Part shown: piece after piece, positions 7,321 through 19,639 of the stretch
How positions within the stretch are numbered: position 1 is the first letter of the stretch
How the letters are laid out: every line of letters begins with the position of its first letter
Assembly: GCA_965218095.1 (NCBI GenBank)
Contig: OZ244587.1
Location: forward strand, 5,120,001 to 5,184,000
Direction of reading: 5' to 3'
Source of the DNA: Candidatus Poribacteria bacterium
Lineage (GTDB): Bacteria; Poribacteria; WGA-4E; PCPOR2b
Length of the DNA: 64,000 nt
Position numbers and translations under genes: made by a program
The notes under the pieces: model-generated
What the model was told of the DNA's origin: nothing
What the model saw: the letters and a program-made list of their open reading frames with translations, nothing else
Database searches by the model: none

Positions 7321-10300
7321 TCATGCCCAATCCTCACACAACACCTCGGCTTGTTCTAAGACAGTTTCGGTGGCTTTGGCTTGTTTGTCGGGTGGGTAGC
7401 CGTATTTGCGAAGAATGCGCTTCACCATCACCCGTAGCTTAGCACGGACGCTCTCCCTTAGTGTCCAGTCGATGGTCACATTCCGCCGAACAGTTTCGAC
7501 GAGTTCAACCGCGATGGTTCGCAGTGTTTCACTACCCAACACCTCGACCGCGCTATCGTTGACCTCAAGGGCGTCGTAGAATGCCAACTCATCGTCTGAA
7601 AGCCCTAGTTCCTCGCCACGTTCTTGCGCCTGACGCATCTCTTTTGCGATTTCGATCAGTACCTCGATTACCTGTGATGCTTCAACCGTACGGTTCTGAT
7701 AAGCGCGGATCGAGCGTTCTAGCATTTCTGCAAACGAACGCCCCTGCACGACATTCTTCCGTGAGTGGGTTCTGATCTCATCGTTGAGGAGTTTTTCCAA
7801 AAGTTCAACCGCCACGTTTTTATGCGGCAAGTCACGCACTTCGACGAGAAATTCGTCGGAGAGAATCGAGACATCGGGCTTTTCCAGCCCCGCAGCGGCG
7901 AAAATGTCAACCACGCCTTCAGAAACCACCGCTCTGGATATCAACTGCTTTATTGCCTGCTCTGTCGCTTCAGACTGGGCTTCTTCCGTAGCAGTCGGTT
8001 TTGCCAAAACACTTCTCACCGCTTGAAAAAAGGCGACATCGTCACGAATTTCAATCGTTTTCTCGTGCGGCACTGCCAGCGCAAACGCTTTGGAGAGCGC
8101 GGTAACCGTTTCCAGTAGACGGACTTTGCCATCCTTCTGTTTCAAGATGTGCTCTTGAGCTGGTGGTAGCAGTTTGAGGCGATCTGTGGCGTTGCCAGCG
8201 ATCCACGACGACCAATCGAAACTGTAAAACAGTCCACAGCAGATTTCGTGCTTTTCTTGCATTACCGCAACAGCTTCTGCTTTGTTAATGGCGGTACTCC
8301 CTTTTCCACCGTTTTCGGTGTAGTTTGCCAGTGCCCGTTTCAGGTGGTAAGCGAGCCCGATGTAGTCCACAATCAAACCGCCCGGCTTGTCGGCGAACAC
8401 CCGATTGACGCGGGCAATGGCTTGCATCAGTCCATGTCCACGCATCGGCTTGTCCACATACATGGTGTGAAGGCTTGGCGCGTCAAACCCTGTTAGCCAC
8501 ATATCACGGACAATTACCACTTTCAACGGGTCTTTGGGGTTTTTGAATCGTACCGCCATCTCTTCTCGCCGAGCCTTGTTGCGGATATGCGGTTGCCACG
8601 ACGCATCATCATCAGACGAGCCTGTCATCACAACTTTGATCGCCCCCTGCTTGTCATCATCATTGTGCCACTCTGGACGACGTTTGACAAGCGCGTTGTA
8701 AAGGTCAACGCAGATACGGCGGCTCATGCAGACGCTCATCGCCTTACCCTCCATTGCTTCCAGCCGTTCTTCAAAGTGTGTGACAATATCATCGGCGATG
8801 AGCCCTAACCGCTTTTCCGTTCCCACCAACGCCTCAAGTTGAGCCCATTTGGTCTTGAGTTTCTCTTTGCGTGCGACCTCCTCCCCTTCGGTCGCTTCCT
8901 CAAATTCCGGGTCAACGAGGGGCTTTTCGTTCTCATCCAATTCAATTCTGGCGAGACGACTTTCGTAGTAAATCGGAACTGTGGCGCCGTCCTCAACCGC
9001 ACGTTGTATATCGTAGACGCTGATGTAATTTCCAAAAACCGCACGGGTGTTGCGGTCGGTCGCCTCAATCGGTGTGCCGGTAAAACCGATAAAAGAGGCG
9101 TTGGGGAGTGCGTCTCGCATGTGACGGGCAAATCCGCTAATAAAGTCGTACTGGCTGCGGTGTGCCTCGTCCGCAATAACCACAATGTTCCGCCGATTGG
9201 ATAGTAGGGGAAAACGGATTTCATCGCCTTCTGGAAAAAACTTCTGGACTGTGGTAAAGACCACCCCGCCCGATGCGACTTTCAGAAGTTCGCGCAGGTG
9301 TCTCCTGTCTCTTGCTTGTACCGGTGTTTGTCGCAAAAGTTGATTACACCGCGCAAATGTGCCGAATAGTTGCTCATCTAGGTCATTTCGATCGGTGATA
9401 ACGACCAGTGTTGGGTTTTCCATCTGTGGATGCTGGGCGATGCTGCCTGTGTAAAAGACCATAGTCAGACTCTTGCCCGAACCTTGTGTATGCCATACGA
9501 CGCCGCATTGTTTGTCCCCTTCAGGGCGCGATGCTTTTACAGTGGTATCGACCGCCGTTTTCACGGCGTGGAATTGGTGATAACCGGCAATCTTTTTAGC
9601 AATCGTCTCGCCTTCAGTTTCTTCAAAGACGATGAAGTGTTTAAGGTAGCTCAAAAAGCGTCCCTGCTCAAAGATACCCTTAATCAACACCTCTAGTTCT
9701 AATTCAGTTGAGGGCGCCTCATCCTCTCCCTTGATTGTCCTCCACGGCATGAACCATTCGTGATCAGCGGTCAGGGAGCCGATGCGCGCCTCTAATCCGT
9801 CAGAAATGACGAGCGTCTCGTTATAGATGAACAGCGAAGGAATTTCCTGCTTGTAGGTACAGATTTGGCGAAATGCGGTTAGGATGGTGGCTTTTTCGTC
9901 GGTCGGGTTTTTGAGTTCAATCACGGCTAAGGGCAGCCCGTTGATAAACAACACGATATCCGGGCGGCGTTCGCTGTTCTCTACCACTGTGAACTGGTTG
10001 ACCGTCAACCAATCATTGCTTTCAGGCGTATCAAAATCAACCAACCGCACGCGCTTACCGCGTATCGTACCGTCCGGCTGTCGAGCCTCAACCTCTATCC
10101 CATCGACCAGCATCAAGTGAAATGCGCGGTTGTTCTGGGTCAATGCAGGAGAATCTGGGTGAAGGACTTTTCGGATCGCTTCCTCTTGTGCTTCGGCGGG
10201 TATGTTTGGATTCAGGCGGGAAACCGCATCCCGAAAACGGCGTTTTAAGATTACCTCACTGTACGTGGAGCGTTCCGCATCGGGAGTCTCCGGGGCGATG

Positions 10301-10392
10301 TCGGGACCATGTAAAACGGTATAACCCAGGCCAGCGAGCCAATCAAGTGCGACTTCTTCGATATCGGATTCGTAAATTGGATTGAGATTCAT
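7321..10392 (-). CDS. hsdR: Type I restriction endonuclease subunit R
   Basis: [18 protein letters not shown] nuclease motif, [24 protein letters not shown]. Confidence 0.97.
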
Positions 10393-10428: not shown

Positions 10429-11043
10429 CTATTGACTTCTCAAGCCGCCTTCTCCCACGCACGCTTTGAGTCCCTCGACAAACACCTGAAAACTTTTCGA
10501 TTTGTTCCGGTTCGGTTTCATGTGTTGAGCGATTTTTCGTGCTACCTTAGTTTTGTGTAACCGCTTTGGATAATATCGTCTCAGCGCACGCCATAGTGCT
10601 TCAGATGTACCGTTCTCAATTGCATCAGGATCCTGATATTGGGCGTTTCTTGAAACTCTAGGGTAAGCGTCTCGCAAAGCCTCAATATCTCCAAAGAACC
10701 ACGCCTCTAATTCTTCAATTGCCAATCGATTGACCACTTGAAAATCCCCTTCTTGGGACGCGCTAGATTTCGTCACAAACCCCGCAGCACACGCTATTGC
10801 TTCTAACTGTGCCTTCAGTTGGAAACAATCTTCGCGATCCTCATCAATAAGGACCATAATTCGACGATTATCGGCTATCGGTGGGTTGAATCCTTTCAAG
10901 AGTGTCGGCAAGTTCTTAAGCAAATCGGGTTTGCCTTGAGAGACATGGAAAGTGCAATCCACATCATCAGAAAGAATCTTAGGCAAAATGATTTTTAATA
11001 CCACTTCAGCAGAGCGTTCCTCCAGGAGAAATTCAATCTGCAT
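10429..11043 (-). CDS. DUF4276-family TOPRIM-like protein, partner of ABC ATPase
   Basis: IEFLLEERS, VLIDEDREDC, EELEAWFFGD; start overlaps ATPase 3' end. Confidence 0.8.
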   Translation of the reverse strand: MQIEFLLEERSAEVVLKIILPKILSDDVDCTFHVSQGKPDLLKNLPTLLKGFNPPIADNRRIMVLIDEDREDCFQLKAQLEAIACAAGFVTKSSASQEGDFQVVNRLAIEELEAWFFGDIEALRDAYPRVSRNAQYQDPDAIENGTSEALWRALRRYYPKRLHKTKVARKIAQHMKPNRNKSKSFQVFVEGLKACVGEGGLRSQ

Positions 11044-12703
11044 TCCCACCTCGCTTTGGACCGCCCGCATTAGTCAGCGGATCTCCAACTTCAAAGTAAC
11101 CTTCCATCCAGAGTTGCCCCAACTTCGCACCCGCATCTAGGAAATCATTGATTCCCCGCATCTCTGACGTACGTTTGCAGACCGTAAACCCCTGCTTATC
11201 TCGGTAAAGTACCCACACCTCCTCGGAGCGCAGTTCGTTAACAAAATGGGGAGAATGGGTGGTAATCATCAGTTGAGACAACCCCAATGCCTCACTGTAC
11301 TCCTCCACTAAACCGTTCAGCAGGCGCGGATGGAGGTAATTTTCAGGTTCCTCAATGCCGATTAGTTGGGGAGGTTCTGGGGCATATAGCAAGGTCAAGT
11401 ACGACAGCATCTTTAACATACCATCGGAGGCAAACTTCGCCGAGATAGGTTTTTCAAACGGCGCATCCTTAATCTTTAACAGAAGACGTCCGTCCATCAC
11501 CAGTTCTGTGTCCACCTCTTCCAAGCATGGAACCCATTCCGACAGTATCAAAAGAATTTTTTCCAAACGCTCTGGGTATCGTTCCTTTAGATACTGGATA
11601 ACATTGGGCAGGTTGTCTCCCGTTTTGGATAACCTTTCTTGCGGGCCCGCTTCTGCAATGCCCCGTGTAGCATCGGCGGAAAGATCAGAAAAGTGCCAAC
11701 CTGTAACGAAGCGATAAAGGGCACTCACACGGGGATGGAGTGCTGATTGCCCAAATCTGCTGACAGCGAGCGTTGACAAATCATTAAGTTGTTCATTGAT
11801 TTGCTTGTCTTCCTCATCCGGTATTTCACCAGCGGTAATGTGCCCTTTGCCCTCCTGAAAATCGAGGAAGCGAAACGGTCTTCCCCGACTACCGCGCCGC
11901 CATCGCAGCCACTCGGCTTTAACACACGGTCCTTTTGTATCTTCATCAATGGTCAGATGGTAGGTGATGAGTGGTGTCTTGGGTTTCTCGCGATATTTTA
12001 ACTCAAATTCAATCGGTCCATCACTGCCGCGCGTCCTTAACTCCTTAAAACGTTCCCTTTTTGCCCATGCAGAACGCAGCCCGTCCGTGAAACATTCTGT
12101 GAGAAATGCAAAGACATCGAACAGCGTTGACTTCCCGCTGCCGTTTGGCCCCAAAAAGACAGACAGTGGTGTGATTCCTTTTAATTCTACATCTCGTAGG
12201 GCACGATAGTTCCTTACACGTAATGACTCAATGTGTGGGATAAGCAGCTTCTGTACAACTAGCACTGGGAGACATTCGCGGAGCAGCTCATTAAATTTTT
12301 CATCAAATTGATCTTCAGCCGGAAGGTCTATATAAACTTGTGTTCCTAAAAATGATGGCGTTTTATCTTCCCCCAGCGCCTGACGGATTATGGGAATGAA
12401 TTTGTTGTTTCCCACATCTTCGACAAGTTTCCTAGTTACAATCATTGGCTCGTAGCCAACGCCACCTTCACCGGCGTTTGCCTTTCTCACGTAGCTATCT
12501 GTACAAATGACCAGTACCCTGTCGGAGTCTCTGATGCCACGCTCCATGAATTGTGCTAAATCATCGCCCAGACGGAGGTGCCACTGGTCAAGTATAACCT
12601 CAACTCCCTTGCGATGAAGCTTTGCACTGAGTTCTGATACCCACTGCTTATGTTCTGGCGTATCATGAGAATATGAGATGAACACCTTGGGATGCTCCGC
12701 CAT
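11033..12703 (-). CDS. SEFIR/TIR domain fused to ABC-type (AAA_21-like) ATPase
   Basis: KVFISYSHD..GGVGYE; then GPNGSGKST, SDG signature, IEEPE, TTHS. Confidence 0.88.
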   Translation of the reverse strand: MAEHPKVFISYSHDTPEHKQWVSELSAKLHRKGVEVILDQWHLRLGDDLAQFMERGIRDSDRVLVICTDSYVRKANAGEGGVGYEPMIVTRKLVEDVGNNKFIPIIRQALGEDKTPSFLGTQVYIDLPAEDQFDEKFNELLRECLPVLVVQKLLIPHIESLRVRNYRALRDVELKGITPLSVFLGPNGSGKSTLFDVFAFLTECFTDGLRSAWAKRERFKELRTRGSDGPIEFELKYREKPKTPLITYHLTIDEDTKGPCVKAEWLRWRRGSRGRPFRFLDFQEGKGHITAGEIPDEEDKQINEQLNDLSTLAVSRFGQSALHPRVSALYRFVTGWHFSDLSADATRGIAEAGPQERLSKTGDNLPNVIQYLKERYPERLEKILLILSEWVPCLEEVDTELVMDGRLLLKIKDAPFEKPISAKFASDGMLKMLSYLTLLYAPEPPQLIGIEEPENYLHPRLLNGLVEEYSEALGLSQLMITTHSPHFVNELRSEEVWVLYRDKQGFTVCKRTSEMRGINDFLDAGAKLGQLWMEGYFEVGDPLTNAGGPKRGGNAD

Positions 12704-12887
12704 CTCCTACCTCCAATTTCATGCGAATATGAAACATCGCACAAATCTAAATACTGTTAAAAAAATCGATGAAGTCAAACAACGCGAATCTCTCCTGACG
12801 ACAGTTCGACAGCAGAACGTCTCCGATTTGGGAGAGTGCAAGATTGTTCAAACGGTTTTAACCAATCAGTAACTTCAGTAACTGAGG

Positions 12888-14411
12888 TTACACCCCCTCA
12901 AAGAAATTCTGATAGATATCAGAAAGATTCTGGTGAGCTATCGGATTAAATCCATACGCCTGTAACTCCTTATCGGCTAAGTGAATCCAATTTTCCCATA
13001 AGTGCTCGATTTGCTGACGTGTGACATTTAAGCTGATCCATAATTCCATAAGTGCTTCCGGATTACGACGAAGTAGAACAGTCGCACGCTGGGTTATATC
13101 GTTCCCTTCGTAAAGAAAAGTCAACGGGACTGTAAAGTAATATTCAGAACTTGTGTTTAAGGTGTCCTGTCGACCTGAAGCGATTAACGTCGTTAATTCA
13201 TGGATATTTAGTGCCATATAATATGCCACCAATGAAGTCTGATAGTCCAATTCATTACCAAATATGGGAGCCAACCAATCCCATTTTTCGTATGCCTTCG
13301 TTAAATACTTCCAACCTTCTAGACAATTACCACCACGAGTGCCACTAAGTAATTCGGAGTACCCTCTAAGTTGACTTGTTTTCCATACAGGAAGGGATTT
13401 TCTACCATCTGCAACAGGGATTTTAACTCGTGCAAGGCTTAGGGCGAGATCTAGCTGATTTGTGCTCAGGCTGAGACCCCCGTGCAGACTGTGATAGACA
13501 TACCCTAGTGCAAAAGATATGTTTTGCCAGTCTACGTACACGGAACGATTCCAACTTGCAATATTCAGCAGGTCATCGAGAATGGGCTTCTGATCTCTAA
13601 ACTGTTCCCTACTAGATTCAACTCCCACTAAAGCAACAGAAATTAAGGGTGAGATAATTTCAACCGCTGTATCCACAACCCGAACCAACTGTTCTTTGCT
13701 TTCTGGTCGCTGACCCTCCAACTCATTTTGTCGCCATTGTACCAAGGAATTGAATACACTTGGCTTAATTCTTTTGACGAGTTGTCGCCATCCAAGTACG
13801 TCCCCCGCACGGGCGAGCTTGATCGCAGCTAAGTAAGCTTCGGATGCAGATCCAACCTGCGCCGGGATTTCAGGCAGTTGAGTGCCTGACCCTTCAATAG
13901 GCGGTGCTTCTTGTCCAGAGGGAAGTTTAGCGAATGGGTTTTTTCCCAAAGGGGGTTTCTCTATAACTGGCACTCGATGGAGTTCATGAATCAACTTATC
14001 AAATTCCGATTCAAATTGACTGTCATTCCTGAAGTCAATATAAACTCGCGTTCCTAAAAATGTTGGTGTCTTTTCCTTTCCTGATGCCTGACGGATTACA
14101 GGAATGAATTTATCAGTTCCTAAATCCTGAACAAGCTGCGCGGTTACAATCATTCGCTCATAGCCAACGCCACCTTCACCGGCACTCGCCTTCCTCACGT
14201 ACTGTTCCGTGCAAACGACTAGTACCCTATCGGAGTCTACAATACCGCGCTCCATGAATTGTGTTACATCATCGCCCGGACCGAGGTCCCATTGGTCGAG
14301 TATCGCATCAACTCCATTGTGGCGAAGTTTTGCACCGAGTTCTGATACCCACCGCTTGTGTTCTGGAGAATCGTGAGAATATGAAATGAATACCTTAGGG
14401 TGTTCTGCCAT
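12888..14411 (-). CDS. SEFIR/TIR domain protein with unrecognised, probably helical C-terminal region
   Basis: N-terminal KVFISYSHDS..GGVGYE..KFIPV; about 330-aa unrecognised C-terminus. Confidence 0.85.
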   Translation of the reverse strand: MAEHPKVFISYSHDSPEHKRWVSELGAKLRHNGVDAILDQWDLGPGDDVTQFMERGIVDSDRVLVVCTEQYVRKASAGEGGVGYERMIVTAQLVQDLGTDKFIPVIRQASGKEKTPTFLGTRVYIDFRNDSQFESEFDKLIHELHRVPVIEKPPLGKNPFAKLPSGQEAPPIEGSGTQLPEIPAQVGSASEAYLAAIKLARAGDVLGWRQLVKRIKPSVFNSLVQWRQNELEGQRPESKEQLVRVVDTAVEIISPLISVALVGVESSREQFRDQKPILDDLLNIASWNRSVYVDWQNISFALGYVYHSLHGGLSLSTNQLDLALSLARVKIPVADGRKSLPVWKTSQLRGYSELLSGTRGGNCLEGWKYLTKAYEKWDWLAPIFGNELDYQTSLVAYYMALNIHELTTLIASGRQDTLNTSSEYYFTVPLTFLYEGNDITQRATVLLRRNPEALMELWISLNVTRQQIEHLWENWIHLADKELQAYGFNPIAHQNLSDIYQNFFEGV

Positions 14412-15675
14412 CTTTTACCTCCAATCTCTCATCTACATCGTCCACACGAATTTCCCCGAACAGCAACTTCGGCAGCAGCACGTCCCGGATTTGCGATAGA
14501 GTGTGGGATTGTTGATTATTAGCAGCTCGTTTTTTATCAAGTATGGAAACTTTTTCATAAAACCGTTTGGCGATATCAAGCGGCGGAAAAACAAATTCAA
14601 CAGCGGAAAGCAATTGAGCATTCGCATTAGGTTGTGCAGAGCCACCTATACAACCTGCCACATAATTATCGTATACTGGCGAAGCCATGAACTCCCCAAC
14701 CAGACGAGCCATGCTTAAATCATGAAATTGAATTCTCACAAGGTAGGAAGCAAAAACGGCATCAGGTGGATCAACAATATAGATGTTCGCGCCCGTTGTG
14801 GCTCCAGTCCGCGCTACGAGTATGTCTCCTTCCTGAAGTCGGTATTTCTCATGATTTTTTTCAGTAATATGACAAAATGGTACGCTTGCCCAATTAAGCC
14901 TTTTATTAGAAATGTCAGTGATTCTTAGGAACTTTGGTCCGACAGGTTTTTCAGATGCACTCTGTGTAAATCCATATTGGATTCGTGATACTTGATTTTT
15001 TACTTGGTCAACTTCCCACCCCTTCGGGATTTTTCCCACCGGCGAATCTTGGAATGCTGACGGGAACAGGGCAGCAGTTTCAGCGTCCATACCAGCGGGT
15101 TGGCGTCCATCCATCTTTGCCCGCACCGGGTCAAAGTCCACAAACCACGACTTGAAAATCGCCCGCGCCATCGCTTCCAGTGTCTCATTCATCTGTCGGT
15201 TGAGTTTGATTTTGTCGTCAAGCGTGCCGAGGATGTAGGCGATGGCATATTGTGCAGCTTCGCCGAAGTTCGGGTAAGGGATCGCGGCGAGTTGCGACGC
15301 AGAGATACTAGGAAATGTTGACCCTGTCGCTTGTGCGAGCAATGCGGGAAGTTGAAACTCAATCACCGCGCGAACGAACGGCTGGAGTTCATCTATCCAC
15401 CGGTGACGAAAAGCTGCTATACCACGTCCAATCGCATATTTTTGATCCGCCCAATTCATGCGGCCCGTGGTTGAACCCCGGACGCAAAAGAGAAGGTCTC
15501 CTGGATTTGCGATCTTACGCGCATCAGTGGTAAACTGAACGGGCGTGGGATGGTAAGGGCCAAATTCAGTTGGACCGTTCAGTAGTGGAATCCCTATATC
15601 TCCTGAAACTGTATTGCCTAGTGGCGACTGCCCCATCACAATATCTACGAAGTCAGCTATGGTTTTACTCGCCAT
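14395..15675 (-). CDS. hsdS: Type I R-M specificity subunit
   Basis: Two TRDs; conserved spacer LDDKIKLNRQMNETLEAMARAIFKSWFVDF, IPKGWEV, LLPKLL. Confidence 0.95.
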   Translation of the reverse strand: MASKTIADFVDIVMGQSPLGNTVSGDIGIPLLNGPTEFGPYHPTPVQFTTDARKIANPGDLLFCVRGSTTGRMNWADQKYAIGRGIAAFRHRWIDELQPFVRAVIEFQLPALLAQATGSTFPSISASQLAAIPYPNFGEAAQYAIAYILGTLDDKIKLNRQMNETLEAMARAIFKSWFVDFDPVRAKMDGRQPAGMDAETAALFPSAFQDSPVGKIPKGWEVDQVKNQVSRIQYGFTQSASEKPVGPKFLRITDISNKRLNWASVPFCHITEKNHEKYRLQEGDILVARTGATTGANIYIVDPPDAVFASYLVRIQFHDLSMARLVGEFMASPVYDNYVAGCIGGSAQPNANAQLLSAVEFVFPPLDIAKRFYEKVSILDKKRAANNQQSHTLSQIRDVLLPKLLFGEIRVDDVDERLEVKDGRTP

Positions 15676-15780: not shown

Positions 15781-16020
15781 TCATTGACGGCGGAAAACCA
15801 AGGCTTCTACAATTTGGGCATCGTCAGTTATTTCTTTCTCTGACCCGTGAAAATCGTTGTGTTGGCCCTCCCAGTCGTAGATTTGGGTGTCCAGTTGTAT
15901 CTTTATGACGGAAATCCGTTCTAGCGACAGGTCGTCATAGCCATCCTCATAGCCATTGACAACGACCCGCAAATCATCCGGATATTTTCTGAGGAGTTCA
16001 ACCAACGCTTTTATCGTCAT
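15781..16020 (-). CDS. Small acidic hypothetical protein, 79 aa
   Basis: ATGA overlap with upstream gene; [21 protein letters not shown]. Confidence 0.7.
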   Translation of the reverse strand: MTIKALVELLRKYPDDLRVVVNGYEDGYDDLSLERISVIKIQLDTQIYDWEGQHNDFHGSEKEITDDAQIVEALVFRRQ

Positions 16021-17771
16021 TTTCCATCTCCTTTGGAATAAGGGCGATACTCCACTAGCGCCGACCTACCGATGATTGCGACGATGCGCGCTACCAGTTC
16101 CCTTCCATCGGCATCAGTGAGACGCAAATCCTCACCGGGCATGAAATGAACTGGCTGCGGTTGGCCCTCGTTGATGGCGATGTTGGAGGCGTAGAGGTAG
16201 GTCCGGTCATGGGTATCGCGAATGGGATTCAAACGCCCCGACAAGCCCGGAAGGTAGCCGGTCTCCTCCGGAAAGAGCACGGATCCGCCATCTGGCAGGC
16301 TTTGCATTTCAATTGCAAGTGCCCCCTGCGCTGGCACCCAGTCGTGTTTAAGGTGTGCGGCGAAGCCGGTAGCGGCCGCGAACACCGTCATGGGAAGGTG
16401 CGTGGAATACAGATTGACTTGTGCCTCGCCATTCTCGTCGGTGGTTGTTTGTTTCCATGTCTTATTGGGAAACAGTGCCAACAACTTGACCCCCGGCACA
16501 GGGAGGCCGCGGTGATGGCACATGATGACAGTGGTTGCCGGTGTCGCATCCGTGGGAGCGGCAGGAATTGTGAGAACAAGGTCTGAATCATCAATAAGCT
16601 GGTATTCTGGGATTTTTCCACTCAAGGCTTCCGTTTCACGAAGGATGATTGGCACACCGTCCCCACGCCGCTCCATGAAAAATTGCCGATCTCCCGAACC
16701 CCGGACCTCCCCGACAGGTATTCGTCCGAAGATTGAAGCAAGTGCTTCGTTTCGAGTTGATTGGCGGACATCCATGCTGTCGATCGTTAGGTTGTTTGGC
16801 AACCCACCGGGAGAGTTTATTTCAAGGCGATCCGCGAACATTGAGAGTCGAATCCGGCTGCCACGAATTGAGTAGTCGCGGTGGGCAACGGCGTTGACAA
16901 TCGCTTCAAACAGTGCTGTCTCACTGTATTGTGGCAAGTCGGTCCGAGCGGGATTCTTGTAAGCACCGACGCGCATGTTGCGGACCGCAAAGGCAACTGC
17001 CTCAGTAATTTGTCGGTTCAACGGTCCAGTAATTGTCTGGGCATCTATCTGATCGGAGGCACGATCGTTGCCTCGGTAACAGGTCGCGGTGATGCAAGCG
17101 TTGGGAAGCCATTCTTCGGGCGAGCGACTGCACAACAGCACTCCCGCCACCGTAGCCCGCGTTGTCCCATTTTCGTCGTTAGCCAGAAGCCCCATCCTTT
17201 CCAGCGCAGATTCAGGATCGGCAGCACCTACGGTACTCAATAAAGGCTTCCAAAGAGATTCATCTAGGGATCCAAATCCAGTTCCCTCAACCGGCTGTTT
17301 ATCAAACCAGAGGAATCGTGCCTGCCCGCGCTGCTGTGCCAGACGCAGCCGCTCATTGCTCGTCATCCGACGTTTTGAGCTGCCGACCCGATGGTAGCTG
17401 CCGCCGGGACTGTCGTGCTGAGTGTGACCTTGCGGTACTTCAACCAATAGGAATGATGCCCCTTCCTTTAGTTCTCTACGAAGGATGGTAAGGCGGATTG
17501 GGGGGGCAATCTTGTCAGTGCAAACTTCCACTAAAAGCCGCTCCAGTCCGTCCATCTGCTCGCGTGACATACCTTGCACATCGCCACTGTCGGTCACACC
17601 ACATAGCACCACACCGCCGTCTGTATTGGCAAAGGCAGCGAGTTCATCTACCAGATCGCCGCGACGGGGACTCCTAGGAACATTACCAACAAACTCAATC
17701 TCCTTGAATTCCCAGTGGCTGTCCTCGCCGAGGCGCATTTGGCGTTTGATTTCTTCGTCACTGAAATTCAT
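16017..17771 (-). CDS. Schlafen/AlbA_2 + HATPase_c_4 protein with beta-rich C-terminal extension
   Basis: [19 protein letters not shown]; [30 protein letters not shown]. Confidence 0.85.
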
Positions 17772-19591
17772 GAATTATCTCCAATCCCAACTATCTCCAA
17801 ATTCTCACCGATCGCCGCATCCAACCGCCGCGCCTCCGCCATCTGCTCGGTCAGTTTCTTGGTTAAATGTGCCATCGTTTCCTCAAACGCTTCGTTGTCG
17901 TCCTCCTGAACCACTGTCCCAACGTAGCGGCCAGGGGTCAAGACGTGGCTATGCTTGCGTACTTCCTCTAGGGTTGTGCTTTTGCAGAAGCCGGGCACAT
18001 CGGCATATTCGCCCGCACCCTCATCGCCGCGCCAAGCCTGATAGGTATTAGCAATGCGCGTTATATCTTCATCTGTTAATTCCCGATGAACGCGATCAAT
18101 CATCACGCCGAGCGTGCGAGCGTCTATGAACAGGATTTCGCCGCTACGGTCGCGGAAAGGCAGACGGTTTTGGGCAGGCACAAGACCTGCCCCTACATTT
18201 GGTTCGTCCTCTGTAGGGGCAACCCTTGTGGTTGCCCTGTTGGGCACGGTTGCCGCATTTTCCGCCCTACCGGCCGGGGGTTGGGCAGGCACAAGACCTG
18301 CCCCTACATTTGGTTCGTCCTCTATAGGGGCAACCCTTGTGGTTGCCCTATTCACCGGGGTTGCCCTCATGCCGGATCCGTGGCGGTTGCGGGCGATAAA
18401 CCAGAGGCAAACGGGAATCTGTGTGGAATAGAAAAGCTGTCCGGGCAACGCCACCATGCAATCCACCAAATCGGCTTCGACGATGTTCTTGCGAATCTCG
18501 CCTTCAGTAGATGTATTAGAACTCATCGAACCGTTTGCCAACACAAAACCAGCGGCGCCGTTTGGCGCGAGGTGATGGATAAAGTGCTGTACCCAAGCGA
18601 AGTTGGCGTTTCCTACGGATGGCGCACCGTAAACCCAACGTCTATCTTGACGCAACCGGTCACCGCCCCAGTCGCTGTCATTAAAGGGTGGATTGGCGAG
18701 GACATAGTCCGCTTTCAAGTCTGGATGCAGGTCGTGGTGGAAGCTATCAGCATGTTCCTGTCCGAGATTGGCTTCAATGCTACGAATTGCGAGGTTCATC
18801 AGTGCCAACTGTCGTGTGGTCGGGTTCGACTCCTGCCCGTAGACGACAATATCGTCGCGCTTTCCGCCGTGTGCTTCAACGAAAGTTTCACTCTGAACAA
18901 ACATGCCGCTAGAACCACAGCACGGGTCGTAAACCCGCCCCTTGTATGGCGCGAGCATCTCAACGAGCACCCGCACCACACAGCGGGGGGTGTAGAACTG
19001 TCCGCCCCTTTTGCCCTCCGCACTCGCGAATTCTGAAAGGAAGTATTCGTAGACCCTGCCCAATATATCCTTTGAGCGGTTCGCTTCCTCTCCCAAACCG
19101 ATTGTACCGATCAGGTCAATCAGTTCGCCAAGTCGTTGCTTGTCAAGCCCCGGACGCGCATAGTTTTTAGGAAGAACCCCTTTCAGACGCGAGTTTTCCC
19201 CCTCAATCGCAATCATCGCGTTATCAACCAACGTCCCAATTTCCGGTCGCTTGGCATTCGCTTGCAGATAAGCCCAGCGGGCTTTCTCCGGGACGTAGAA
19301 GATGTTGTCTGCTAGATATTCATCTCGGTCCTCGGTGATCTGGTAGCGGGCAGCTTTCTCTTTAATGTAGTATTCACTGTGAGGATCGGCAGATTCTTTG
19401 AACAGCCAATCGCGTTTTTCCTCGAAAGCGTCTGAAATATACTTGAGGAAGATTAACCCCAACACCACATGCTTATATTCGGCGGCATCAAGGTTGTTAC
19501 GGAGTTTGTCCGCTGCTTGGTATAGGGTTGCTTCAAAGCCGAGCGTCGCCCCGTTTTCATTCGATTTTGTGTCTCGTTTCTTTTTTGCCAT
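17768..19591 (-). CDS. hsdM: Type I R-M N6-adenine methyltransferase with internal repeat insertion
   Basis: [26 protein letters not shown]; start 19591 (ORF track 19609). Confidence 0.97.
18172..18348. repeat. Four REP-like GTAG palindromes (two doublets, 111-bp period) inside hsdM
   Basis: GGGCAGGCACAAGACCTGCCCCTAC at 18172 and 18283; (G/A)TAGGGGCAACCCTTGTGGTTGCCC at 18213 and 18324. Confidence 0.9.
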
Positions 19592-19639
19592 AGTCTTTTT
19601 TATCAGCATCCGCTTTACGCTTGTTTATTCTAGTGATTC

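What the first reader, a model, noticed from the sequence alone, without database searches (positions are those of the whole stretch)
10429..12703. SEFIR/TIR domain grafted onto an ABC-ATPase + DUF4276 (TOPRIM-like) two-gene module
Seen: a 556-aa ORF with a complete SEFIR/TIR domain (putative catalytic Glu85 in GGVGYE) fused to an intact ABC ATPase (Walker A/B, signature, H-loop), overlapping a DUF4276 gene with E and DxD motifs. Known: ABC-ATPase plus TOPRIM pairs (PARIS, AbiL/RloAB, OLD) sense phage and release a toxic nuclease, and bacterial TIR/SEFIR domains deplete NAD+ on oligomerisation. Inference: a dual-effector defence unit in which ATPase assembly also switches on an NADase or docks to the neighbouring SEFIR protein. 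I do not recognise this architecture as a named system.
Basis: partly seen in the sequence, partly recalled or inferred. Interest (0 to 1): 0.85.

Follow-up and report, generated by a model that had tools for sequence, protein, structure and literature searches.

The report
SEFIR domain fused to HEC-01 ATPase
A sponge-symbiont bacterium carries, inside a restriction-modification operon, a known candidate phage-defence pair (ABC ATPase plus TOPRIM-like nuclease) whose ATPase has gained a copy of the NAD-destroying SEFIR domain of the neighbouring defence gene, a fusion that is real and conserved but whose function is untested.

Summary
ORF 11033-12703 (-) is one 556-aa reading frame: a complete SEFIR/TIR domain, about 5 linker residues, then an intact ABC ATPase. 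It overlaps a DUF4276 gene (10429-11070).

The parts are already catalogued. The ATPase/DUF4276 pair is PADLOC's candidate system HEC-01. The upstream 507-aa gene is a bSEFIR. All three sit between hsdS and hsdR of a type I R-M operon.

The fusion itself turned up in none of my literature searches. It is no artefact:
- 30 of 176 Poribacteria species genomes carry it, and no other phylum showed it.
- 119 of the 120 best database clusters carry both domains.
- dN/dS of the fused SEFIR is 0.20.
- Glu85 is kept in 29 of 30 genomes.
- The fused SEFIR domains form one lineage, separate from the bSEFIR domains.
- An intact bSEFIR lies directly upstream in 26 of 30 loci and DUF4276 downstream in 28 of 30.

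Best reading: the SEFIR domain came from a duplicated bSEFIR gene and serves as an NADase effector, or as a docking domain for bSEFIR, driven by ATPase assembly. The TOPRIM-like partner is a second effector.

Verdict: new variant of a known kind, moderate interest.

The parts
17768..19609 (-). hsdM, type I R-M methyltransferase (613 aa); first gene of the co-directional array
   Evidence: Pfam N6_Mtase 5e-101, HsdM_N 6.5e-26
16017..17771 (-). Embedded 584-aa AlbA_2 (Schlafen-like) + HATPase_c_4 protein; overlaps hsdM by 4 nt
   Evidence: Pfam SLFN_AlbA_2 7.1e-19, HATPase_c_4 1e-19. Present in many of the related Poribacteria operons
15781..16020 (-). Small 79-aa ORF with no family match
   Evidence: No Pfam, PADLOC or NCBIfam hit. 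Homologues at 62-85% identity in related loci
14395..15675 (-). hsdS specificity subunit (426 aa); its 3' end overlaps the bSEFIR start by 17 nt
   Evidence: Pfam Methylase_S 1.6e-14, two stretches; coordinates
12888..14411 (-). bSEFIR-type gene (507 aa): N-terminal SEFIR domain (residues 1-150) plus a C-terminal domain with no family match
   Evidence: PADLOC bSEFIR 3.5e-79; Pfam TIR_2 1.8e-25, SEFIR 5.3e-16. dN/dS 0.09 for the SEFIR part and 0.27 for the C-domain
12704..12887 (-). 184-nt spacer between bSEFIR and the fusion gene. About 17 nt before the ATG (ATTGGAGGTA..AGATG) repeat the sequence before the bSEFIR ATG, which there is the 3' end of hsdS
   Evidence: DNA alignment; sequence
12254..12703 (-). 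SEFIR domain of the fusion protein (residues 1-150). Asp39 at 12587-12589; Glu85 at 12449-12451
   Evidence: Pfam TIR_2/SEFIR; PADLOC bSEFIR 6.1e-67 on residues 1-145; 5y8e 8.8e-28. 68% aa identity and about 80% nt identity (my reading of the alignment) to the neighbour's SEFIR. Coordinates
12239..12253 (-). Fusion junction / linker (residues 151-155)
   Evidence: Paralogue homology ends at residue 152. ABC homology begins at 155-157. A contig of run X5 bridges 11987-12454
11033..12238 (-). ABC ATPase part of the fusion (HEC-01A; residues 156-556 plus stop). Walker A K191, signature S426-D427-G428, E451-E452, H483
   Evidence: PADLOC HEC-01A 3.5e-156 on residues 156-541; Pfam AAA_21 9.8e-26; these residues invariant in 19 of 19 sequences
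10429..11070 (-). DUF4276 / HEC-01B TOPRIM-like gene (213 aa; likely real start Met10 at 11041-11043). E17/E18 at 11017-11022; D76-x-D78 at 10837-10845
   Evidence: Pfam DUF4276 1.3e-26; PADLOC HEC-01B 1.4e-74; acidic residues invariant in 38 of 38
7321..10392 (-). hsdR restriction subunit (1023 aa); last gene of the array
   Evidence: Pfam T1RH-like_C 2.6e-135, SWI2_SNF2 3e-81, HSDR_N 1.2e-50

Best explanation
This is a Poribacteria-specific three-gene defence module nested between hsdS and hsdR of a type I R-M operon. It consists of a bSEFIR gene, a SEFIR-HEC-01A fusion (SEFIR domain plus ABC ATPase) and HEC-01B (the DUF4276 TOPRIM-like nuclease).

Shown: the parts belong to catalogued families. 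The fused SEFIR domain is a paralogue of the neighbour's SEFIR domain. All fused copies form one lineage. The fused domain is under purifying selection and keeps Glu85.

Inferred mechanism: the ATPase dimerises and binds HEC-01B, as the related MAD3-MAD4 pair does in a 2:2 complex. A phage cue, possibly an attack on the R-M system as in PARIS, drives ATP-dependent assembly. Assembly brings the N-terminal SEFIR domains together, alone or with bSEFIR, so that they hydrolyse NAD+. The TOPRIM-like partner cuts nucleic acid. The outcome is abortive infection with two effectors.
For: Family assignment.

Conservation of the fusion:
- 119 of the 120 best clusters listed carry SEFIR/TIR_2 plus AAA_21/AAA_15, at 69-100% identity.
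- 30 of 176 Poribacteria species genomes carry a full-length fusion with no internal stops.
- In GTDB species genomes, only 5 of the 80 kept loci match from residue 1, and all 5 are Poribacteria.

Single lineage: 30 fused and 32 bSEFIR SEFIR domains separate at one branch, SH-aLRT 98.

Selection: median dN/dS is 0.198 for the fused SEFIR and 0.118 for the ABC part.

Key residues: Glu85 is kept in 29 of 30 fused and 32 of 32 bSEFIR domains. It aligns to Glu in the B. cereus SEFIR and to Ile in the human Act1 SEFIR.

Linkage: an intact bSEFIR lies directly upstream in 26 of 30 loci and DUF4276 downstream in 28 of 30. In L120 and L128 no R-M gene matched within +/-9 kb of the triad.

Intermediate forms: tandem bSEFIR pairs occur in L112 and L143. 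An analogous REC-ABC fusion at the same junction occurs in L140.

Literature:
- SEFIR depletes NAD+.
- SEFIR-SEFIR contact is needed for bSEFIR defence.
- MAD3-MAD4 is a 2:2 ATPase/DNA-cleaving complex.
- PARIS senses an anti-restriction protein.
Against: There are no functional data for this module.

The only HEC-01 tested gave no protection against the phages tried in E. coli.

The catalytic role of Glu85 is not demonstrated by any search. Glu79 is equally conserved in this set.

The fused SEFIR evolves about twice as fast as the bSEFIR one (dN/dS 0.20 against 0.09). Its 41-50 loop is much less conserved (0.54 against 0.88). This fits a changed or relaxed role.

On the ABC tree, fused and unfused forms are interspersed. 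A single fused clade is rejected (AU p 6.5e-5), so the domain has been lost or swapped repeatedly. It is therefore dispensable for the HEC-01 core.

RNA contigs covered the bSEFIR 5' end but next to nothing of the fusion gene, so there is no evidence of expression.
Confidence: 0.5

Rival explanations
1. Adaptor model. The fused SEFIR domain is mainly a docking module. Once the ABC ATPase is triggered, its SEFIR domains nucleate assembly of the neighbouring bSEFIR protein through heterotypic SEFIR-SEFIR contacts, and bSEFIR is the NADase that matters. The ATPase would then be a second sensor wired to bSEFIR, much as IL-17R recruits Act1.
For: An intact bSEFIR lies directly upstream in 26 of 30 fusion loci. 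These two are the only SEFIR domains in the genome. The bSEFIR SEFIR domain is the more constrained one (dN/dS 0.09 against 0.20).

Asp39 lies in the ILDQW motif. It may correspond to the D40 needed for SEFIR-SEFIR contact in Bacillus bSEFIR, though that correspondence is not verified. Asp39 is replaced in 3 of the 4 loci lacking an intact bSEFIR and in 1 of the 26 that have one.

Eukaryotic SEFIR domains signal by heterotypic contact.
Against: Glu85 is kept in 29 of 30 fused domains. A pure adaptor would not need it: human Act1 has Ile at that position.

The fusion persists as an intact ORF in 4 loci without an intact bSEFIR: L123, L127, L138 and L139.

The Asp39 pattern rests on at most two independent events. 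L127 and L138 are sisters, and so are L123 and L133.

bSEFIR also occurs next to unfused ATPases (L141, L142, L143), so proximity alone may reflect a shared insertion hotspot.
Confidence: 0.25
2. Neutral by-product. The fusion is an accident of a deletion in a crowded insertion hotspot. The SEFIR domain is a passenger with no role, and the unit works as plain HEC-01.
For: The hsdS-ABC gap is a hotspot. It holds bSEFIR, tandem bSEFIRs or a GHKL-ATPase/REC pair in different genomes. One genome has a REC-ABC chimera at the same junction, and another has hsdS and the ATPase in one frame. The SEFIR domain has been lost several times.
Against: dN/dS of the fused SEFIR is 0.198 over 426 pairs, at a median dS of about 1.0. 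There are no stops in 30 of 30 genomes. Many core residues are kept, including Glu85. The fusion is spread over two families and four genera.
Confidence: 0.06
3. Host-interaction factor. As a 'eukaryote-like' SEFIR protein of a sponge symbiont, it interferes with host immune signalling rather than with phages.
For: SEFIR is an animal immune signalling domain. The carriers are titled Candidatus Poribacteria, and runs labelled sponge or marine metagenome share words with the locus. That Poribacteria are sponge symbionts is recalled, not tested.
Against: The gene is nested in a type I R-M operon and is translationally coupled to a TOPRIM-like nuclease. It is fused to a cytoplasmic ABC ATPase of a defence family. 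Its closest solved relative is a bacterial SEFIR. I did not run a signal-peptide predictor.
Confidence: 0.03
4. Assembly or annotation artefact: two genes wrongly joined.
For: None was found.
Against: The same uninterrupted frame is seen in 30 of 176 species genomes, several of them single-contig assemblies, and in 119 of the 120 listed protein clusters. A contig from a run of another study bridges the junction.
Confidence: 0.01

Closest known systems
HEC-01 (PADLOC 'Hma-embedded candidate 01': HEC-01A ABC ATPase + HEC-01B TOPRIM-like DUF4276; Payne et al., bioRxiv 10.1101/2024.01.29.577857; passages read)
   Same: Both genes hit the HEC-01 profiles (3.5e-156 and 1.4e-74). They are adjacent and overlapping, and embedded in another defence system (here type I R-M). 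The E and DxD metal site is kept.
   Different: The ATPase carries an extra 150-residue N-terminal SEFIR domain, and a bSEFIR gene is usually upstream. The paper's text does not mention SEFIR. The HEC-01 tested there gave no protection, so even the core is a candidate, not a proven system.
bSEFIR single-gene defence system (Millman et al. 2022 preprint, passages read; NAD+ depletion stated in the papers)
   Same: The N-terminal SEFIR domain hits the PADLOC bSEFIR profile (6.1e-67) and the B. cereus SEFIR structure. The neighbouring 507-aa gene has the bSEFIR layout.
   Different: In the fusion, the bSEFIR C-terminal domain is replaced by an ABC ATPase that has its own nuclease partner.
MAD3-MAD4 module of the MADS system (NAR 2026, PMC13662399; abstract, introduction, section on the MAD4 site and discussion read)
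   Same: A P-loop/ABC-type ATPase with a separate DUF4276-type TOPRIM-like protein, shown there to form a 2:2 complex with ATPase and DNA-cleaving activity. This is the best experimental model for the core pair. MAD4 is called a DUF4276 homologue in PMC12065111.
   Different: The NCBIfam MAD3 score is 115 bits against a cut-off of 420, so this is not an equivalog. No MADS operon is seen here. MAD3 has no SEFIR domain in the figure legend read. No solved MAD3/MAD4 chain matched by sequence.
PARIS (AriA ABC ATPase + AriB DUF4435 TOPRIM; Nature 2024, PMC11464382; passages read)
   Same: An ABC ATPase paired in trans with a TOPRIM nuclease, and functionally tied to restriction systems (it senses the anti-restriction protein Ocr).
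   Different: AriA profiles score far lower (6.6e-27) than HEC-01A. The nuclease is DUF4276, not DUF4435. PARIS has no TIR/SEFIR domain.
TIR-domain effector fusions of defence sensors (TIR-SAVED, TIR retron RT, Thoeris; named by the weak PADLOC/NCBIfam hits; the general design logic is recalled)
   Same: An NADase-type STIR-clan domain attached to a sensor or oligomerising module.
   Different: Here the partner is an OLD/HEC-01-type ABC ATPase that already has a nuclease effector. Searches found this combination only in this family.

Membership tests
HEC-01 (PADLOC candidate system) | ABC ATPase matching a HEC-01A profile | tested here: met
   PDLC04182 HEC-01A 3.5e-156, residues 156-541 on profile 2-404 of 406
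HEC-01 (PADLOC candidate system) | Adjacent TOPRIM-like HEC-01B (DUF4276) with E and DxD metal-site residues | tested here: met
   PDLC04202 HEC-01B 1.4e-74; Pfam DUF4276 1.3e-26; E17, E18, D76, D78 invariant in 38 of 38; the genes overlap
HEC-01 (PADLOC candidate system) | Embedded within another multi-gene defence system | tested here: met
   Lies between hsdS and hsdR of a type I R-M operon. hsdR, whole or partial, follows in 21 of 29 related fusion loci
HEC-01 (PADLOC candidate system) | Protects against phage | not testable with these tools
   The published HEC-01 gave no protection against the phages tested
bSEFIR (single-gene NAD+-depleting system) | N-terminal SEFIR domain | tested here: met
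   PADLOC bSEFIR 6.1e-67 on residues 1-145; 5y8e 8.8e-28. By Pfam bit score TIR_2 (86.9) exceeds SEFIR (55.0). Millman's 'SEFIR stronger than TIR' rule used HHsearch and was not reproduced
bSEFIR (single-gene NAD+-depleting system) | Stand-alone protein with the bSEFIR C-terminal domain | tested here: not met
   For the fusion protein, the C-terminal part is an ABC ATPase and homology to the neighbour ends at residue 152. The neighbour at 12888-14411 does meet this: the bSEFIR profile covers residues 1-281
bSEFIR (single-gene NAD+-depleting system) | NADase activity dependent on a catalytic Glu and on SEFIR-SEFIR contact | not testable with these tools
   Glu85 kept in 29 of 30 and Asp39 in 26 of 30 fused copies.
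PARIS (AriA/AriB) | AriB-type DUF4435 TOPRIM partner | tested here: not met
   The partner is DUF4276 and has no DUF4435 hit. AriA profiles reach only 6.6e-27, against HEC-01A at 3.5e-156
MADS MAD3/MAD4 | MAD3 equivalog score | tested here: not met
   NF047739 scores 115.1 bits against a cut-off of 420; PADLOC mad3 6.1e-21
Type I restriction-modification (host operon) | hsdM, hsdS and hsdR genes in one array | tested here: met
   Pfam N6_Mtase 5e-101, Methylase_S 1.6e-14, HSDR_N 1.2e-50 and T1RH-like_C 2.6e-135

The most novel reading that the evidence does not exclude
The fused SEFIR domain is a signalling adaptor. A restriction-embedded ABC-ATPase/TOPRIM guard senses interference with the type I R-M complex. 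Through heterotypic SEFIR-SEFIR contact it then nucleates the neighbouring bSEFIR into an NADase assembly. This would be a prokaryotic counterpart of IL-17R-Act1 signalling, joining two sensors (the ATPase and the bSEFIR C-domain) and two effectors (NADase and nuclease) in one three-gene module.
Probability: 0.2. Interest if true: 0.75.

Novelty: new variant of a known kind. Interest (0 to 1): 0.5.

Why it matters
HEC-01-type ATPase/DUF4276 pairs are among the most common genes found embedded in other defence systems. Yet the one tested showed no phenotype, and nothing I read identifies what triggers them.

A natural version whose ATPase carries an NADase-type domain offers a built-in readout, an NAD+ drop, for when the ATPase fires. 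It also offers a natural series for dissecting what the added domain contributes: unfused, fused with bSEFIR, fused without bSEFIR, and REC-fused.

It further documents how defence modules are rewired in place. Duplication plus deletion in an insertion hotspot inside an R-M operon moved an effector domain from one system onto the sensor of another.

If the two SEFIR domains do co-assemble, it would be a bacterial case of SEFIR-SEFIR signalling between different proteins.

Tried and rejected

Literature.
- The published version of Millman et al. was not held, so only the preprint was read. The residue mutated there is D40, and its equivalence to Asp39 here is my guess from the ILDQW/ILDRW motif.
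- 'bSEFIR' as a search word found 0 papers.
- 'Poribacteria' + 'SEFIR' found 0.
- 'SEFIR' + 'ABC ATPase' found only the Millman preprint.
- The Poribacteria defence search gave two papers; from their titles and abstract starts I judged them unrelated and did not open them.
- Supplementary tables of the HEC and Millman papers, which may list domain fusions, were not seen.

Solved structures. No PDB chain matched DUF4276 by sequence or by profile. No MAD3-like chain was seen.

More distant fusions. I searched the 50%-identity representatives with residues 1-300 for more distant SEFIR/TIR-HEC-01A fusions. Of the 150 best hits out of 10,495, only P0241, P0242 and P0361 span the junction, and all three are fragments. 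P0241 and P0242 are 66-69% identical to the query; P0361 is 58% identical. Four further candidates (P0295, P0308, P0310, P0346) have no ATPase domain. Hits below the top 150 were not seen, so this is not proof of absence.

Expression. The RNA runs X9 and X11 gave contigs on 13972-14388 (the bSEFIR 5' end) but next to nothing on the fusion gene. Contigs cannot show absence, and DNA carry-over cannot be excluded, so nothing is concluded.

Other attempts.
- The promoter/terminator scan found fewer sites than the shuffled controls.
- The careful SEFIR tree did not finish, so the quick tree is used.
- PARIS and MADS membership were considered and rejected.
- Asp39 loss against bSEFIR loss (3 of 4 against 1 of 26) was considered as co-evolution evidence, but it reduces to about two independent events.
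Full report
WHAT IS THERE

The finding lies in a 12.3-kb array of eight co-directional minus-strand genes with short gaps or overlaps:
- hsdM, 17768-19609
- an AlbA_2/HATPase_c_4 gene, 16017-17771
- a 79-aa ORF, 15781-16020
- hsdS, 14395-15675
- a 507-aa SEFIR protein, 12888-14411
- the 556-aa ORF of the finding, 11033-12703
- a 213-aa DUF4276 gene, 10429-11070
- hsdR, 7321-10392

Pfam confirms the three type I R-M subunits. The 556-aa ORF has TIR_2 (2e-24, full profile), SEFIR (1.5e-14) and AAA_21 (9.8e-26, full profile). The N-terminal domain matches the crystal structure of the B. cereus SEFIR domain, at 8.8e-28 and 5.5e-34 with a profile.

The ATPase motifs are present and invariant in a 19-sequence family alignment: Walker A K191, signature S426-D427-G428, E451-E452 and H483. 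In DUF4276, E17, E18 and D76-x-D78 are invariant in 38 of 38 sequences.

Paralogue homology ends at residue 152 and ATPase homology begins at residue 155-157, so the junction is at about nt 12236-12253.

WHAT THE PARTS ARE CALLED

Against PADLOC-DB:
- The ATPase part hits HEC-01A at 3.5e-156.
- The DUF4276 gene hits HEC-01B at 1.4e-74.
- The N-terminal 145 residues hit bSEFIR at 6.1e-67.
- The upstream 507-aa protein hits bSEFIR at 3.5e-79.

HEC-01 is one of the 'Hma-embedded candidates' of Payne et al. (bioRxiv 2024; passages read). It is an ABC ATPase with a TOPRIM-like partner, found nested in other defence systems. In that paper it gave no protection against the phages tried in E. coli.

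DUF4276 has been placed in the Toprim superfamily, and its homologue MAD4 belongs to the MADS system (PMC12065111). MAD3-MAD4 was recently shown to form a 2:2 complex with ATPase and DNA-cleaving activity (PMC13662399). Here the NCBIfam MAD3 model scores 115 bits against a cut-off of 420. The pair is therefore a relative, not a member. PARIS is more distant still: AriA scores 6.6e-27, and its partner is DUF4435 rather than DUF4276.

bSEFIR is an experimentally supported single-gene system (Millman preprint). It is stated to deplete NAD+ through its N-terminal SEFIR domain.

IS THE FUSION REAL AND CONSERVED?

Yes.
- In the 5.8-billion-protein collection, 119 of the 120 best clusters listed carry both SEFIR/TIR_2 and AAA_21/AAA_15. 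Identity is 69-100% and most are 551-559 aa long. The exception, P0054, is a 470-aa protein without the SEFIR annotation.
- Among GTDB species genomes, 510 stretches encode a relative and 80 were kept. Only 5 of those 80 match from residue 1, and all 5 are titled Poribacteria. The other 75 come from Poribacteria, cyanobacteria, Methanothrix, Chloroflexota and others, and start at residue 113-156. These are ordinary unfused HEC-01A.
- Across the phylum, 30 of 176 species genomes, the window's own included, have the full-length frame without stops. Six are in family f1 and 24 in family f4 (13 in genus g17 and 11 in g18).
- A search of 50%-identity representatives with residues 1-300 found junction-spanning hits only as three fragments: P0241 and P0242 (66-69% identity) and P0361 (58%). 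That is 3 of the 150 best out of 10,495 hits. Four other candidates lacked an ATPase domain.
- A 468-nt contig from a run of a different study bridges 11987-12454, with 46 differences.

WHERE IT CAME FROM

The two SEFIR domains in the window are 68% identical in protein. By my reading of the DNA alignment they are about 80% identical in DNA. The similarity includes about 17 nt before the ATG, which at the bSEFIR gene is the 3' end of hsdS.

A tree of 62 SEFIR domains puts the 30 fused and 32 bSEFIR domains on opposite sides of one branch, with SH-aLRT 98. This is the quick tree, because the careful search did not finish. The fused domain therefore arose once and has not been homogenised with its neighbour since.

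On a tree of 59 ATPase parts, the Poribacteria sequences form one clade (support 100). Inside it, fused and unfused forms are interspersed. Parsimony needs 5 changes, and well-supported branches force at least 2. An AU test rejects a single fused clade (p 6.5e-5). I had seen the tree before running that test. Together these results mean one gain followed by repeated loss or lateral replacement.

The gap between hsdS and the ATPase gene is a hotspot. Different genomes hold:
- nothing (L009, L011-L014, L145, L146)
- one bSEFIR before an unfused ATPase (L141, L142)
- two tandem bSEFIRs (L143; L112 has two plus the fusion)
- a GHKL-ATPase plus a REC-domain gene (L143)
- in L140, a REC-like domain (Response_reg 27.4 bits, below the 30.2 cut-off) fused to the ATPase at the same junction

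A tandem bSEFIR duplication followed by a deletion into the ATPase start is thus a plausible route, with its intermediates observed. This route is inference.

IS THE ADDED DOMAIN FUNCTIONAL?

Median pairwise dN/dS (NG86, pairs with dS between 0.05 and 2):

| Region | dN/dS | Pairs |
|---|---|---|
| Fused SEFIR | 0.198 | 426 |
| ATPase part | 0.118 | 425 |
| bSEFIR SEFIR domain | 0.092 | 322 |
| bSEFIR C-domain | 0.269 | 322 |

The fused domain is under purifying selection, but about twice as relaxed as its paralogue.

Glu85 is kept in 29 of 30 fused domains (Asp in L123) and in 32 of 32 bSEFIR domains. It aligns with Glu in the B. cereus SEFIR (GGVGTE). In the profile alignment it aligns with Ile in the SEFIR domain of human Act1, a non-enzymatic adaptor. 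This supports a catalytic role but does not prove one. Glu79 is equally conserved in this set, though it is Arg in the B. cereus protein.

Residues 41-50 are far less conserved in the fused copies (0.54 against 0.88). Asp39 is replaced in 4 of 30 fused copies and in 0 of 32 bSEFIR copies.

LINKAGE

Of the 29 other fusion loci:
- 25 have an intact bSEFIR immediately upstream.
- 3 (L127, L138, L139) have only the bSEFIR C-domain. It is split into two frames in L127. tblastn found no SEFIR segment upstream in any of the three.
- 1 (L123) has none.
- DUF4276 follows in 27 of 29. It is absent in L123 and truncated in L125.

With the window included, the counts are 26 of 30 for bSEFIR and 28 of 30 for DUF4276.

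hsdR, whole or partial, follows in 21 of 29. In L120 and L128 the three genes stand without any matched R-M gene within +/-9 kb (blastp, E <= 1e-5, ORFs of 60 aa or more). The triad can therefore travel on its own.

The window's genome has only these two SEFIR domains.

Asp39 is replaced in 3 of the 4 loci without an intact bSEFIR and in 1 of the 26 with one. This reduces to about two independent events, because L127/L138 and L123/L133 are sister pairs.

HOW IT MOST LIKELY WORKS (INFERRED)

By analogy with MAD3-MAD4 and PARIS, the ATPase dimer holds the TOPRIM-like partner. A trigger, perhaps linked to the state of the R-M complex in which the module is nested, changes its assembly.

The SEFIR domain is tied to the first strand of the ATPase by about 5 residues. 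It would then be brought next to other SEFIR domains and become an active NADase, with or without bSEFIR. I put about 0.5 on this reading. I put about 0.25 on the variant in which the fused domain mainly recruits bSEFIR.

The passenger-domain, host-interaction and artefact readings are unlikely, for the reasons given under the rival explanations.

VERDICT

The components are catalogued (HEC-01, bSEFIR, type I R-M). The fusion and the conserved triad are a lineage-specific new variant that I did not find in print (searches; the HEC paper text; supplements not seen).

Interest is moderate. It is still more than routine, because the fusion supplies a natural handle on an uncharacterised and very common embedded ATPase-nuclease pair.

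Noticed in passing
L144:8992-11553 (-) (genome G154); also L013:1-1515; compare L145 and L146: hsdS and the HEC-01A ATPase are read as one 853-aa ORF in G154, with no stop between them. In G096 and G170 the two genes are in the same frame, separated by a single TAG. This Rosetta-stone-like hint suggests the ATPase may work physically with the R-M specificity subunit. It could also be a sequencing error.
   Followed up: partly
L140:8530-10200 (+) (genome G022); L143:5629-8945: A REC (response-regulator receiver-like) domain is fused to the HEC-01A ATPase at the same junction as the SEFIR domain, and the product is also 556 aa. In L143 the same REC domain heads a separate 362-aa gene that follows a 743-aa GHKL/HATPase_c_3 protein. 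This looks like another two-gene cassette embedded in the same hotspot.
   Followed up: partly
L138:8722-9771 (-); L139:7828-8880 (+); L127:7789-8873: Upstream of three fusion genes there is an ORF holding only the bSEFIR C-terminal domain and no SEFIR domain. It is about 350 aa and intact in L138 and L139, and split in L127. It may be a decaying remnant or a free-standing sensor subunit.
   Followed up: partly
window:17768-19609 (-), HsdM residues about 416-484: This HsdM is 613 aa, against 534-538 aa in most related loci. The relatives align to residues 1-415 and 485-613 only. The extra segment contains a near-duplicate peptide (two copies of ...[23 protein letters not shown]...), which looks like an in-frame insertion of repeated DNA.
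   Followed up: no
window:16017-17771 (-) and 15781-16020 (-): A 584-aa AlbA_2 (Schlafen-like) + HATPase_c_4 protein and a conserved 79-aa ORF with no family match sit between hsdM and hsdS. They recur in many Poribacteria operons. The larger protein has weak PADLOC hits to pAgo-associated proteins (5.8e-16).
   Followed up: no
window:6324-7114 (+): Two short ORFs carry IS4/IS5-family transposase domains (DUF4096, DDE_Tnp_1_2). They are a broken or frameshifted IS element directly downstream of hsdR. The genes on the far side of hsdM are housekeeping (5'-nucleotidase, TonB-dependent receptor).
   Followed up: partly
G000:C1:3714089-3714379, 763527-764072, 5463087-5463356, 6208803-6209066 (outside the window): The genome has four further DUF4276 matches besides the one in the window. 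Some are short or carry stops, so other HEC-01-like loci or remnants exist.
   Followed up: no
proteins P0256, P0288, P0290, P0308, P0328: SEFIR domains 50-66% identical to this one occur at internal positions of quite different proteins: a TPR + pentapeptide-repeat protein of 880 aa, a LexA-DNA-binding fusion of 586 aa, and others. This SEFIR subtype is therefore a widely shuffled module.
   Followed up: partly
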